Origin: Escherichia phage VEc33 | DNA: 64,000 bases | Direction: 5' to 3' (one strand) | Sequence record: NC_048818.1 | Shown here: positions 3,517-31,372 of the stretch, one piece after another | How positions within the stretch are numbered: position 1 is the first letter of the stretch | How the letters are laid out: each line of letters begins with the position of its first letter | Position numbers and translations under genes: made by a program | Notes under the pieces: generated by a model | The model's database searches: none | What the model was told of the DNA's origin: nothing | Seen by the model: the letters and a program-made list of their open reading frames with translations, nothing else

Positions 3517-3592
3517 TGGTGCACCCTGTTCGTATCGAACGAACCTCTCAAGCTCTTCAGGCAAGCGCTAATCCATCTCAGCTAAAGGTGCA
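3517..3592 (-). tRNA. tRNA, anticodon loop CUGAAGA (GAA, Phe-type; low confidence)
   Basis: RC: acceptor GCACCTT/AGGGTGC, perfect T-arm GTTCG-TTCGATA-CGAAC, CCA; anticodon stem pairs poorly. Confidence 0.5.
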
Positions 3593-3597
3593 AATTT

Positions 3598-3676
3598 TGG
3601 CAAACCTACTAGGACTCGAACCTAGACCGTACGGTTTTAGAGACCGACATGCTGTCCAGTAACACTCTAGGAATGC
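3598..3676 (-). ncRNA. tRNA-like element with anticodon-type stem-loop CGGU-CUCUAAA-ACCG (anticodon position CUA)
   Basis: T-arm CTAGG-TTCGAGT-CCTAG and 3' CCA present, but no canonical acceptor pairing found by hand; either pseudo-tRNA or non-canonical tRNA. Confidence 0.35.
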
Positions 3677-3682
3677 AGAAAT

Positions 3683-3759
3683 TGGCGTCCTGTGCGGGGA
3701 TCGAACCCGCAAATCCTACCTTGAAAGGGTAGTGACTTTACCAGTTTGTCTAACAGGAC
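3683..3759 (-). tRNA. tRNA-Glu (anticodon UUC)
   Basis: RC: acceptor GTCCTGT/ACAGGAC, anticodon stem CTACC/GGTAG with loop CTTTCAA, T-arm GCGGG-TTCGATC-CCCGC, CCA. Confidence 0.7.
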
Positions 3760-3766
3760 TTAAATT

Positions 3767-3856
3767 TGGTGTTGGATGATGGAGTCGAACCACCCGAGAC
3801 CCTTCCGAGTCGGCAGATTTACAGTCTGCTTCGCTACCTCTACGATACTAATCCAA
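3767..3856 (-). tRNA. tRNA-Tyr (anticodon GUA), type II with long variable arm
   Basis: RC: acceptor GTTGGAT/ATCCAAC, anticodon stem GCAGA/TCTGC with loop CTGTAAA, long variable arm, T-arm GTGG-TTCGACT-CCAT, CCA. Confidence 0.7.
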
Positions 3857-3985
3857 CATATTTAAAAGTATTCAAATACTAGTTTAAACACTTTTAAATA
3901 TGTTTCCGAATTAGATAACTATTATATCAAGTTTTAAGGCACTGAGCAAGTCAAATTTTAAAGAACTTGCTCAGTGCTGTATTAG

Positions 3986-5023: not shown

Positions 5024-5101
5024 TTTGGTGGCTCCCCGAGGATTCGAACCTACGTACCTTCCGGTTATGAGCCGGGTGCTCATACCATATGAGCTTGAGA
5101 A
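5024..5101 (-). tRNA. tRNA-Met-type (anticodon CAU; loop CUCAUAA)
   Basis: RC: acceptor GGTTCTC/GGGAGCC (two G-U pairs), D-arm GCTC-ATATGGTAT-GAGC, anticodon stem CCGG/CCGG, TTCGAAT T-loop, CCA. Confidence 0.6.
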
Positions 5102-5107
5102 CCAAAA

Positions 5108-5197
5108 TCTGGCGGAAGAAGTGGGAATCGAATCCACAAGGCTATATTTCAAACCGACAGATTAGCAATCTGCTGCAATACCGTTATGCTATTCTTC
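5108..5197 (-). tRNA. tRNA-Ser (anticodon GCU), type II
   Basis: RC: acceptor GGAAGAA/TTCTTCC, anticodon stem GCAGA/TCTGT with loop TTGCTAA, long variable arm, T-arm GTGGA-TTCGATT-CCCAC, CCA. Confidence 0.65.
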
Positions 5198-5219
5198 CGA
5201 ATTTATAAGATATATTATA

Positions 5220-9299: not shown

Positions 9300-9372
9300 T
9301 ACCGACCGTAGGATTCGAACCTACATCTTCCACCAGTTACGGCTTGATAATACCAATTATACTAGGACGGCA
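9300..9372 (-). ncRNA. tRNA-like element (T-arm GTAGG-TTCGAAT-CCTAC; anticodon undetermined, no CCA)
   Basis: clear T-arm on minus strand; acceptor and anticodon stems could not be folded cleanly by hand. Confidence 0.4.
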
Positions 9373-9647: not shown

Positions 9648-10091
9648 TTAATTAAATTCGCCAGCAATCTGAGCAGCAGTACCACCATCATAACGCCCAG
9701 AAAATTCTTCCTTAATCGCTTTCATCAGCATACCTTTTGTAATTCCAGGGTTTAGCTTAACTAATTCTGCAAAGTATTTACGAATCTCAGTATCAGATAA
9801 CTGAGGAGGCAGATACTCCTGCAACCACTTAGTTAGAATGTATTCATACTGAGCGGACTGCAAGCTATAACTATCAAGATCTTGACCATGAAGTTTAGCT
9901 TTCATCTGGTTAATGCTTTTTAGTTGAGCTTTGAGATAAGACACAAATTGTTCAGAAGTGATGAAATCTTTATCAATACGCTGAAGATCCCCGATTATGG
10001 TCTGATAGCTTTTAGCGACTTCTTTATCAGAACCATTAAACTTAGAATCCTGCAAAGCTCTACGCAAAACATCTAAAATATTCTCTTCCAT
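9648..10091 (-). CDS. GatB/YqeY-domain protein
   Basis: 147 aa; C-terminal LNPGITKGMLMKAIKEEFSGRYDGGTAAQIAGEF typical of YqeY. Confidence 0.6.
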   Translation of the reverse strand: MEENILDVLRRALQDSKFNGSDKEVAKSYQTIIGDLQRIDKDFITSEQFVSYLKAQLKSINQMKAKLHGQDLDSYSLQSAQYEYILTKWLQEYLPPQLSDTEIRKYFAELVKLNPGITKGMLMKAIKEEFSGRYDGGTAAQIAGEFN

Positions 10092-24477: not shown

Positions 24478-24640
24478 TCCAGAAAACATGCTTATTGAGC
24501 AATGGAACTTTGGTTATAATGCTGGTGTAGCTACTTGTATTGCTAGATTGGATACGCTTATTAAGCAAGAAAAGGTACGCCCTGAGGAAGCAATTTTACT
24601 CCGAAATATTATCGAAGGATTTAAGCAAGGAATCGTATAG
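24446..24640 (+). CDS. hypothetical protein
   Basis: 64 aa from ATG 24446 with GGAGGAG RBS; overlaps previous ORF end. Confidence 0.4.
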   Translation: MDFLNQNLKSNPENMLIEQWNFGYNAGVATCIARLDTLIKQEKVRPEEAILLRNIIEGFKQGIV

Positions 24641-30667: not shown

Positions 30668-31372
30668 ATGGCTGGTTCTCGCAGAAAGAAACATATCCAT
30701 GAAATCCCGGATGAAGTCTTTAAAAAAGTTATAGAGCATCTGGAGAACGGTGGTACTAAGAAAGCAGCATGTGAAATGCTTGGCGTATCATCCAACCCAA
30801 CTATGGAAAGGATGATAGAAGAGTGGCAAGATCGCCAAATTCAAGTTGCCGAGATGAAGAAAAAGAAACGTGGCACACTCATTGAAGGCATTGAGTTAGC
30901 TAACGTTATTGAGCAGTATTTATCTGGTGATTCTTTTGAAGAAATTGCCGATCGTAATTACCGCTCTGTAGCAATGGTTAAATCTGTTCTGGAACGATAT
31001 GGTGCTCTACTTCGTTTGAACGATATTGTAGATCCATTGAATCCTCCAATTATTCCTGATGATGCTGTAGCAGAAGAATTTGCAGTTGGTGAGCTTGTTT
31101 GGGTTCCTGGGTACCAGTGTATCGGTGAAATCAAAAAAGCAATGGATAACCCTGTTGGTTGTTACCGTGTATGGCTTCTATCAGAAGGCAAACAACAGAA
31201 CGTTCATTATATGAATTATGAGTTGGCTTCTGTAAAGCATTTGGAAAAGCTAGGAGTAGACGTAAAATCTCTGGGGTATAAATGGACTCGGGAAGAAGTC
31301 ATTACGTTGATTAACGAAGCTGTTAAGGCCGCCTTGAAACTTGATAAAGAAAAAGGAAAACGCCGTGAGTAG
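30668..31372 (+). CDS. putative HTH DNA-binding protein
   Basis: 234 aa from ATG 30668; N-terminal HTH-like NGGTKKAACEMLGVSSNPTMERMIEEW. Confidence 0.5.
   Translation: MAGSRRKKHIHEIPDEVFKKVIEHLENGGTKKAACEMLGVSSNPTMERMIEEWQDRQIQVAEMKKKKRGTLIEGIELANVIEQYLSGDSFEEIADRNYRSVAMVKSVLERYGALLRLNDIVDPLNPPIIPDDAVAEEFAVGELVWVPGYQCIGEIKKAMDNPVGCYRVWLLSEGKQQNVHYMNYELASVKHLEKLGVDVKSLGYKWTREEVITLINEAVKAALKLDKEKGKRRE

What the first reader, a model, noticed from the sequence alone, without database searches (positions are those of the whole stretch)
3598..3676. tRNA-like element whose anticodon loop would present CUA (amber-reading)
The region has a good T-arm (CTAGG-TTCGAGT-CCTAG), an encoded CCA, and a canonical-looking anticodon stem-loop CGGU-CUCUAAA-ACCG, which places CUA at positions 34-36. 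I could not fold a canonical acceptor stem by hand. It may therefore be a pseudo-tRNA, a non-canonical tRNA, or a suppressor-type tRNA. A phage-borne amber suppressor would change how stop codons are read during infection.
Basis: partly seen in the sequence, partly recalled or inferred. Interest (0 to 1): 0.45.

Follow-up and report, generated by a model that had tools for sequence, protein, structure and literature searches.

The report
Amber-suppressor allele of phage tRNA-Trp
This is a real tRNA gene in a T5-like phage: the family's tryptophan tRNA with one private base change that turns its anticodon from CCA into the amber-reading CUA, but the phage shows no sign of using a changed genetic code.

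Summary
A 77-nt tRNA gene lies on the minus strand at 3598-3674, with anticodon CUA and an encoded CCA (ARAGORN; Rfam tRNA 36.9 bits against a cut-off of 29). It sits in the tRNA array of a T5-like phage (Tequintavirus). It is the ortholog of the family's tRNA-Trp(CCA) and differs from it by one base, C35 to U (window 3639, + strand A where relatives have G). The CUA allele was found nowhere else: 0 phage records against 274 with CCA, and 0 in the viral, metagenome and genome collections. The window is not recoded. All 80 orthologous genes align without in-frame stops, and TAG ends only 6 of them, with read-through tails of 2-17 residues. It is not tRNA-Pyl; that is only ARAGORN's label for CUA. 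The most likely reading is a sporadic su+7-type amber suppressor. A GenBank note on a T5-like phage says this same change makes the tRNA an amber suppressor. By analogy with E. coli su+7 it probably inserts Gln and/or Trp. This is a new member of a known kind, of modest interest.

The parts
3598..3674 (-). tRNA gene with anticodon CUA and encoded CCA; ortholog of T5-family tRNA-Trp(CCA)
   Evidence: ARAGORN. Rfam RF00005 36.9 bits. It is 76/77 identical to the annotated tRNA-Trp of Salmonella phage 5, Elw, S131 and 17 IMG/VR contigs.
3638..3640 (-). Anticodon CUA (+ strand reads TAG). The middle base, 3639, is the private substitution: + strand A where relatives have G, which is tRNA C35 to U.
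   Evidence: Alignments. The CUA 32-mer is absent from 'phages' while the CCA 32-mer is in 274 records. The CUA 32-mer is also absent from viral, metagenome and genome contigs.
3767..3857 (-). tRNA-Tyr(GUA), first gene of the Tyr-Glu-[Trp/CUA]-Phe cluster
   Evidence: ARAGORN. Same order as in AJ604531 and OR621298.
3683..3759 (-). tRNA-Glu(UUC), 8 nt upstream of the CUA tRNA in the same cluster
3517..3591 (-). tRNA-Phe(GAA), 6 nt downstream of the CUA tRNA in the same cluster
3897..3973 (-). Region homologous to promoter P14a annotated in AJ604531, upstream of tRNA-Tyr. The extended -10 TGaTATAAT lies at 3929-3921. This is the presumed promoter of the cluster.
   Evidence: Annotation mapped through the alignment (about 95% identical, -10 hexamer intact). 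The generic sigma-70 scan did not call it, so the assignment rests on homology to an annotated feature.

Best explanation
The element is the phage's own tRNA-Trp gene carrying a single C35-to-U transition that converts the anticodon CCA to CUA. Everything else is unchanged from relatives: the body of the tRNA, the encoded CCA, the tight spacing within the Tyr-Glu-Trp-Phe cluster and the upstream promoter region. I therefore infer that it is transcribed and processed like the wild-type tRNA. The mature tRNA pairs with UAG and acts as an amber suppressor, which is the same mutation as E. coli su+7 (trpT CCA to CUA). The anticodon is the main TrpRS identity element and U35 is a GlnRS determinant. 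The tRNA also keeps G73, G10 and a weak A1-U72 pair. It is therefore most likely charged with glutamine and/or residually with tryptophan; this step is inferred, not shown. The phage uses the standard code, so the consequence is partial read-through of the few TAG-terminated genes, adding 2-17 residues to those in the window. The phage also loses its own Trp-decoding tRNA, which the host can replace. The allele looks like a sporadic, roughly neutral mutation in a dispensable gene region, not part of a recoding system.
For: It is a real tRNA with anticodon CUA. It occupies the slot between tRNA-Phe and tRNA-Glu that holds tRNA-Trp(CCA) in relatives and differs from them only at position 35. The cloverleaf is supported by covariation: 7 pairs with compensatory changes, 86.5% of cells paired, 0 of 500 shuffles as high. 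For this same tRNA, the GenBank record AJ604531 says 'replacement of the anticodon with CUA sequence converts this tRNA into amber suppressor'. E. coli tRNATrp(CUA) loses TrpRS recognition and is charged by GlnRS (PMC2965240, citing Yaniv et al. 1974). The anticodon, G73 and the 1:72 pair are the Trp identity elements (PMC9976931). The phage tRNA shares A1-U72, G73, G10 and an identical anticodon stem-loop (28-42 apart from position 35) with E. coli tRNA-Trp, whose sequence was confirmed (alignment). The promoter region is conserved. No recoding is seen: 80 orthologous genes have 0 in-frame stops, and their stops are TAA 60, TGA 14, TAG 6. No TAG-split ORFs exist outside known genes. Read-through tails are 2-17 aa. 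The window carries an ordinary load of private substitutions, 20 in 5,855 well-covered bases with a mixed spectrum. One of them damages tRNA-Ser. This fits drift in a region that T5 can lose: T5Mos lacks 16 of 23 tRNAs and is viable (PMC11464382).
Against: No expression, aminoacylation or suppression data exist for this genome. The suppressor claim rests on a database note whose primary paper I could not retrieve, and on analogy. The tRNA lacks G2-C71 and G3-C70, which are GlnRS determinants present in su+7 (established knowledge: Jahn, Rogers and Soll 1991). GlnRS charging may therefore be weak, and the inserted amino acid is uncertain. The allele occurs in a single sequence, so a base-calling error cannot be excluded from the sequence alone. 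About 45% of a typical T5-like genome lies outside the window. A selected role, such as rescuing an amber codon elsewhere, cannot be excluded.
Confidence: 0.7

Rival explanations
1. The suppressor is under selection. The phage carries one or more amber (TAG) codons inside essential genes outside this window, and the CUA tRNA rescues them. That would make it a phage-borne compensatory suppressor like the T4 psu mutants, or an early step towards TAG reassignment.
For: The mutation hits exactly the one base that makes an amber suppressor, and no other genome has it. Roughly 45% of a T5-like genome (about 108-120 kb) is not in the window. Phage-encoded suppressors that rescue phage amber mutations are a known kind (T4 psu; established knowledge).
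Against: None of the 80 orthologous genes in 64 kb has an in-frame stop, and there are no TAG-split ORFs. TAG is still used as a stop at the same positions as in relatives. Private substitutions occur at about 3.4 per kb, and another one damages tRNA-Ser, which suggests drift rather than selection.
Confidence: 0.1
2. The A at 3639 is a sequencing, assembly or consensus error, or a minority variant. The real phage carries an ordinary tRNA-Trp(CCA).
For: It is a single-base difference seen in one sequence only, at a site invariant in 274 relatives.
Against: The window differs from all well-sampled relatives at about 0.34% of positions with a mixed substitution spectrum. Genuine private substitutions are therefore far more frequent here than typical consensus errors, and nothing marks this site as low quality. 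The change is a simple transition, not a homopolymer indel.
Confidence: 0.08
3. The CUA tRNA is functionally dead. It is made but not efficiently aminoacylated by any host synthetase, or it is poorly processed because of G8/U14, the tandem U•U and the 27•43 mismatch. The mutation would then be a null allele of a dispensable tRNA-Trp gene.
For: The anticodon is the major TrpRS determinant. The GlnRS acceptor-stem determinants G2-C71 and G3-C70 are missing (sequence). The Rfam score is among the lowest in the array. The tRNA genes are dispensable.
Against: The AJ604531 annotation states that the CUA version of this tRNA is an amber suppressor. The odd structural features are conserved with covariation across genera, so they belong to a working tRNA.
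Confidence: 0.1
4. It is part of a TAG-to-sense genetic-code switch (code 15-like) of the kind described in crAss-like, Lak and other gut phages.
For: A phage-encoded CUA tRNA is the hallmark component of such systems (papers listed).
Against: There are 0 in-frame TAG codons in 80 orthologous genes, including the late tail genes. TAG terminates 6 genes at conserved positions. The allele is absent from all relatives.
Confidence: 0.01
5. It is a pyrrolysine tRNA, as ARAGORN's label says.
For: Only ARAGORN's label, which follows from the CUA anticodon.
Against: It has a standard G18G19 D-loop, a UUCGAGU T-loop, a 5-nt variable region and G73. It is 76/77 identical to tRNA-Trp. The hosts are enterobacteria, which have no Pyl system (established knowledge).
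Confidence: 0.01

Closest known systems
E. coli su+7 (supU; trpT with anticodon CCA to CUA)
   Same: It has the identical mutation (C35U) in a tRNA-Trp with A1-U72, G73, G10 and the same anticodon stem-loop sequence, and it decodes UAG. su+7 is charged by GlnRS instead of TrpRS (PMC2965240).
   Different: This gene is phage-borne, not chromosomal. Its acceptor stem has U2•U71/U3•U70 instead of G2-C71/G3-C70, so it lacks two GlnRS determinants. It also has a 27•43 mismatch, U11-A24, G8 and U14. The amino acid it inserts has not been tested here.
Engineered CUA derivative of the tRNA-Trp of the T5-like Salmonella phage 5 (annotation in GenBank AJ604531)
   Different: That derivative was made in the laboratory. 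Here the allele sits in a phage genome in its native cluster. I could not retrieve the primary publication.
Phage T4 psu suppressor tRNAs (anticodon mutants of T4 tRNA genes)
   Same: They are phage-encoded tRNA genes converted to nonsense suppressors by anticodon point mutation, within a dispensable tRNA cluster (established knowledge).
   Different: The T4 psu alleles were selected in the laboratory to rescue phage nonsense mutants. No rescued amber codon is visible in this window.
Suppressor tRNAs of stop-codon-recoded phages (crAss-like, Lak and others; TAG to Gln)
   Same: They are phage-encoded CUA tRNAs active in a standard-code host.
   Different: Those genomes carry many in-frame TAGs in late genes, and the tRNA is a conserved lineage trait. 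Here there are none in 80 genes, and the allele is private to one genome.
Su7 tRNATrp(CUA) variants with an unpaired 27:43 (Schultz and Yarus 1994), and 4-bp anticodon-stem tRNA-Trp
   Same: They combine a CUA anticodon with an unpaired top pair of the anticodon stem. In E. coli tRNATrp this combination also allowed reading of UAA (PMC13092985). The phage tRNA has U27•U43, unpaired in all 6 orthologs.
   Different: The body of the phage tRNA is different. An alternative 27:44 pairing with a bulged U43 covaries and might keep the stem closed. UAA reading has not been tested.

Membership tests
tRNA (Rfam RF00005 cloverleaf) | Covariance-model score above the gathering threshold over the full-length model | tested here: met
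   36.9 bits against 29, model positions 1-71 of 71. ARAGORN also calls it.
tRNA (Rfam RF00005 cloverleaf) | Four helices supported by compensatory changes among orthologs | tested here: met
   7 of 21 pairs have changes on both sides, 86.5% of cells are paired, 0 of 500 shuffles are as high, and slid controls give 36-48% paired.
T5-family tRNA-Trp (ortholog) | Same genomic slot (between tRNA-Glu and tRNA-Phe) and near-identical sequence | tested here: met
   76/77 identity to the annotated tRNA-Trp in AJ604531, OR621298 and NC_048009, with the same gene order.
T5-family tRNA-Trp (ortholog) | Anticodon CCA, decoding UGG | tested here: not met
   The anticodon is CUA. By descent it is a tRNA-Trp gene, but by decoding it no longer is.
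Amber suppressor tRNA (su+7 type) | Anticodon CUA in a 7-nt loop with U33 and a purine at 37 | tested here: met
   The loop is C32 U33 C34 U35 A36 A37 A38.
Amber suppressor tRNA (su+7 type) | Derived from a sense tRNA by an anticodon point mutation | tested here: met
   A single C35U change relative to 274 relatives.
Amber suppressor tRNA (su+7 type) | Is aminoacylated and inserts an amino acid at UAG in vivo | not testable with these tools
   Only indirect support exists: the AJ604531 annotation note and the su+7 analogy.
Stop-codon-recoded phage (TAG reassigned to sense) | In-frame TAG codons within conserved genes | tested here: not met
   0 in-frame stops in 80 orthologous genes. The only TAG-joined ORFs overlap real genes in other frames. 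The part of the genome outside the window was not seen.
Stop-codon-recoded phage (TAG reassigned to sense) | TAG avoided as a terminator | tested here: not met
   6 of 80 genes end in TAG. Four of these stops are TAG in the relative too; one (31370) is TAA in MM-1, and the sixth (24638) rests on a weak 31%-identity match.
tRNA-Pyl | Atypical fold: short D-loop without G18G19, a 3-nt variable loop, a 6-bp anticodon stem and no canonical T-loop | tested here: not met
   The D-loop is UACUGGACA with GG, the variable region is ACGGU, the T-loop is UUCGAGU and the anticodon stem has 4-5 bp.
tRNA-Pyl | A cognate PylRS and pylBCD in the phage or host | not tested
   The relatives' annotations list no such genes, and the enterobacterial hosts lack them (established knowledge). 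No dedicated search was run.

The most novel reading that the evidence does not exclude
The allele is functional and selected. In one version, conserved genes outside the window carry amber codons that this tRNA rescues, which would be an incipient TAG reassignment in a Demerecviridae phage. In another version, the family's unpaired 27•43 and Hirsh-like U11-A24 combine with CUA so that the tRNA reads both UAG and UAA. That would cause read-through at most of the phage's stop codons (75% TAA) during infection.
Probability: 0.1. Interest if true: 0.6.

Novelty: new member of a known kind. Interest (0 to 1): 0.3.

Why it matters
If the base call is real, this is a T5-like phage genome carrying, in its native tRNA cluster, the same anticodon mutation that defines the classical su+7 amber suppressor. 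No other sequenced relative has it (0 against 274 in the phage collection). It shows how one transition in a dispensable phage tRNA gene can produce a stop-codon-reading tRNA. That is the raw material from which recoded phage lineages are thought to start. It also matters for annotation, because ARAGORN's 'tRNA-Pyl' label is wrong here. On the evidence in the window it has no visible partner (no in-frame TAGs), so it is most likely a sporadic variant with small effects and not a new system.

Tried and rejected
1. Single-sequence MFE folding did not give a cloverleaf (z=0.32). I dropped it as uninformative and used the covariance model and covariation instead.

2. I searched for the CUA allele in the phages collection, IMG/VR, metagenome contigs and genome contigs. 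There were no hits.

3. I looked for recoding by running tblastn of 92 annotated relative CDS against the window and by scanning for TAG-joined ORFs. Nothing was found. A first attempt with all stop-to-stop ORFs of the relatives was too noisy because it included non-coding frames, so I discarded it.

4. I tested whether the private substitutions show a GC-to-AT mutagenesis signature, prompted by the two private tRNA hits. The spectrum is mixed, so I rejected this idea.

5. The generic promoter scan did not call the annotated P14a promoter. I relied on homology to the annotated feature instead.

6. Literature searches found nothing for the primary T5 tRNA-suppressor paper or for any report of a suppressor or Pyl tRNA in T5-like phages. 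A further search failed on a term that was too short.

7. The tRNA-Pyl and code-15 readings were considered and rejected; see the membership tests.

Full report
**What is there.** The minus strand of 3598-3674 reads AUUCCUAGAGUGUUACUGGACAGCAUGUCGGUCUCUAAAACCGUACGGUCUAGGUUCGAGUCCUAGUAGGUUUGCCA.
- ARAGORN reports a tRNA at these coordinates on the minus strand with anticodon cta. It labels the gene 'Pyl' only because of that anticodon.
- Rfam's tRNA model matches 3601-3674 end to end at 36.9 bits, against a gathering score of 29. The E-value is 4e-4 for the whole window and 1e-6 locally.
The gene ends at 3674, not 3676.
- The gene is one of 16 tRNA or tRNA-like genes, all on the minus strand, in the first 9.4 kb of the window.

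**Cloverleaf.** The Rfam alignment gives the following structure.
- Acceptor stem: A1-U72, U2•U71, U3•U70, C4-G69, C5-G68, U6-A67, A7-U66, then G73 and an encoded CCA.
- D-stem: G10•U25, U11-A24, G12-C23, U13•G22. The D-loop contains G18G19.
- Anticodon stem: U27•U43 (mismatch), then C28-G42, G29-C41, G30-C40, U31-A39. The loop is C-U-CUA-A-A.
- Variable region ACGGU. T-arm CUAGG/UUCGAGU/CCUAG.

MFE folding of the single sequence does not recover the cloverleaf either.

**Where it comes from.** The window is a T5-like phage (Demerecviridae, Tequintavirus).
- Its nearest database relatives are about 95-97.5% identical, and the best match changes along the window: vB_EcoD-Elw and S131 over the tRNA region, phiLLS over the replication genes.
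- In these relatives the slot between tRNA-Glu and tRNA-Phe holds an annotated tRNA-Trp(CCA).
- Alignment shows the window's gene and its flanks are identical to that tRNA-Trp except at one base, the middle of the anticodon (tRNA C35 to U). On the + strand this is A at window 3639 where relatives have G.

**How common the allele is.**
- None of the 277 phage records that match the 77-mer is 100% identical.
- A 32-mer centred on the anticodon finds 0 records with CUA and 274 records with CCA.
- The CUA 32-mer is also absent from IMG/VR, from the metagenome contigs and from the GTDB genome contigs. The CCA form is in 17 IMG/VR contigs.
- The allele is therefore private to this sequence.

**Is the parent tRNA a working tRNA?** I aligned six orthologs, including the Klebsiella phage SEL21 copy (about 80% identical) and the Serratia phage Slocum copy.
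- The canonical cloverleaf shows 86.5% of cells paired, and 7 of 21 pairs have compensatory double changes.
- No shuffle out of 500 reaches the observed values, and slid controls give 36-48% paired.
- The U2•U71/U3•U70 tandem is retained in the Klebsiella ortholog. In Serratia it becomes U•G/G•U. It is therefore a family trait and not decay.
- The 27:43 position is unpaired in all six sequences.
That describes the sequence found in the window. I could not retrieve the underlying paper.

**Expression context.**
- The gene lies 8 nt downstream of tRNA-Glu's CCA and 6 nt upstream of tRNA-Phe, within the cluster Tyr-Glu-X-Phe.
- The region upstream of tRNA-Tyr is homologous to the promoter P14a annotated in AJ604531 and is conserved. 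It includes an extended -10 TGaTATAAT at 3929-3921.
- A generic sigma-70 scan did not flag this promoter.
- Transcription and processing like the wild-type allele are inferred, not shown.

**No recoding in the window.**
- I compared 92 annotated CDS from S131 and vB_EcoS_MM-1 with the window by tblastn. Six had no counterpart.
- The rest mark out 80 distinct genes, and none contains an in-frame stop.
- Their terminators are TAA 60, TGA 14 and TAG 6. Four of the TAG stops are also TAG in the relative compared. The one at 31370 is TAA in MM-1, and the one at 24638 rests on a weak 31%-identity match.
- A scan for ORFs joined only by TAG found three cases, and all lie inside real genes on another frame or strand.
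- Reading through the six TAG stops would add 2-17 residues.
- The phage therefore uses the standard code in this 64 kb, which includes the replication genes and the late tail genes. The part of the genome outside the window was not available.

**Why the mutation is probably sporadic.**
- In the 5,855 positions covered by at least 8 relatives, the window has 20 private substitutions (0.34%). The spectrum is mixed, with no mutagen signature.
- Two of the 20 fall in tRNA genes. One is the anticodon change. The other is G53 to A in tRNA-Ser(GCU), which breaks the G53-C61 pair.
- T5 tolerates loss of much of its tRNA region. T5Mos lacks 16 of its 23 tRNA genes (PMC11464382).
- Private and even damaging changes in these genes are therefore expected under relaxed constraint.
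- A genuine substitution is also much more likely than a consensus error at this density of real differences. Only reads could settle that.

**Mechanism.** The change is the same as in E. coli su+7.
- E. coli tRNA-Trp (sequence confirmed) shares several features with the phage tRNA: A1-U72, G73, G10, the anticodon stem 28-31/39-42, the loop and the T-loop.
- For Trp identity, the anticodon, the discriminator and the first acceptor pair are the main determinants (PMC9976931).
- E. coli tRNATrp(CUA) is no longer recognised by TrpRS and is charged by GlnRS (PMC2965240, citing Yaniv et al. 1974).
- I therefore expect the phage tRNA to insert Gln and/or Trp at UAG. This step is inferred.
- A caveat is that the phage tRNA lacks G2-C71 and G3-C70. 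From established knowledge these are GlnRS determinants, so charging efficiency and identity are uncertain.

**A further lead.**
- In E. coli tRNATrp, unpairing 27:43 together with a CUA anticodon allowed reading of UAA. Unpairing 27:43 in the CCA form raises UGA read-through (PMC13092985).
- The phage tRNA naturally has an unpaired 27•43. It also has U11-A24, the state that the Hirsh G24A mutation produces.
- The window's allele might therefore also read UAA, and the family's wild-type tRNA-Trp might promote UGA read-through. Neither was tested.
- An alternative pairing of 27 with 44, leaving U43 bulged, covaries U-A to C-G and could keep the stem closed.

**Comparison and verdict.**
- By descent the gene belongs to the T5-family tRNA-Trp. 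By decoding it is an amber-suppressor tRNA of the su+7 type.
- It matches the laboratory CUA derivative noted in AJ604531 and is analogous to the T4 psu suppressors.
- It is not tRNA-Pyl, because the fold features are not met.
- It is not part of a code-15-type recoded phage, because there are no in-frame TAGs and TAG is retained as a stop.
- It is a new member of a known kind, of modest interest.
- Its interest would rise if the rest of the genome carried amber codons, or if the tRNA proved to read UAA as well.

Noticed in passing
window 5110-5198 (-), substitution at 5133: tRNA-Ser(GCU) carries a private G53-to-A change (+ strand T; all 15 aligned relatives have G in the tRNA sense). It breaks the near-universal G53-C61 T-stem pair. 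This is a second private, probably damaging, hit in the tRNA array.
   Followed up: partly
window 3598-3674 (-); L022:401-477; L023:383-457: The T5-family tRNA-Trp never pairs 27:43 (U•U or C•U in all 6 orthologs), so it has a '4-bp anticodon stem'. It also has U11-A24, the state made by the Hirsh UGA-suppressor mutation. In bacteria and eukaryotes such tRNA-Trp(CCA) promote UGA read-through (PMC13092985, which does not mention phages). The wild-type phage tRNA-Trp could be a natural UGA read-through tRNA. An alternative 27:44 pairing with a bulged U43 covaries.
   Followed up: partly
window 3598-3682 (-): The tandem U2•U71/U3•U70 in the acceptor stem is conserved in the Tequintavirus and Klebsiella-phage orthologs and becomes U•G/G•U in Serratia phage Slocum. 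G8 and U14 replace the usual U8 and A14. The last two leader bases (GC) could pair with G73-C74 in the precursor.
   Followed up: partly
window 9300-9371 (-): A tRNA-like element scores 35.5 bits against Rfam tRNA, but ARAGORN does not call it. The acceptor, D and T arms align, the anticodon arm does not, and there is no encoded CCA. AJ604531 annotates a 'tRNA-like RNA with unknown functions' elsewhere in its tRNA region; whether the two are related was not checked.
   Followed up: partly
window 5029-5103 (-): A tRNA with anticodon CAU scores 40.3 bits in Rfam but is missed by ARAGORN. Relatives annotate it as tRNA-Ile2 or tRNA-Met. It has a mismatched T-stem pair and a 27:43 mismatch.
   Followed up: no
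window 9651-10091 (-): The ortholog of a 147-aa protein that S131 annotates as 'tRNA amidotransferase' lies just past the tRNA array. It is conserved among relatives and was not examined further.
   Followed up: no
window 3934-3972: An 11-bp perfect inverted repeat (CACTGAGCAAG...CTTGCTCAGTG) lies within the region homologous to promoter P14a, just upstream of the -10 element. It is conserved in phage 5 and S131, and its role is unknown.
   Followed up: no
window 31370-31372 (+): The 234-aa gene that MM-1 annotates as a 'helicase' ends in TAG here but in TAA in vB_EcoS_MM-1. Read-through would add only 2 residues.
   Followed up: no
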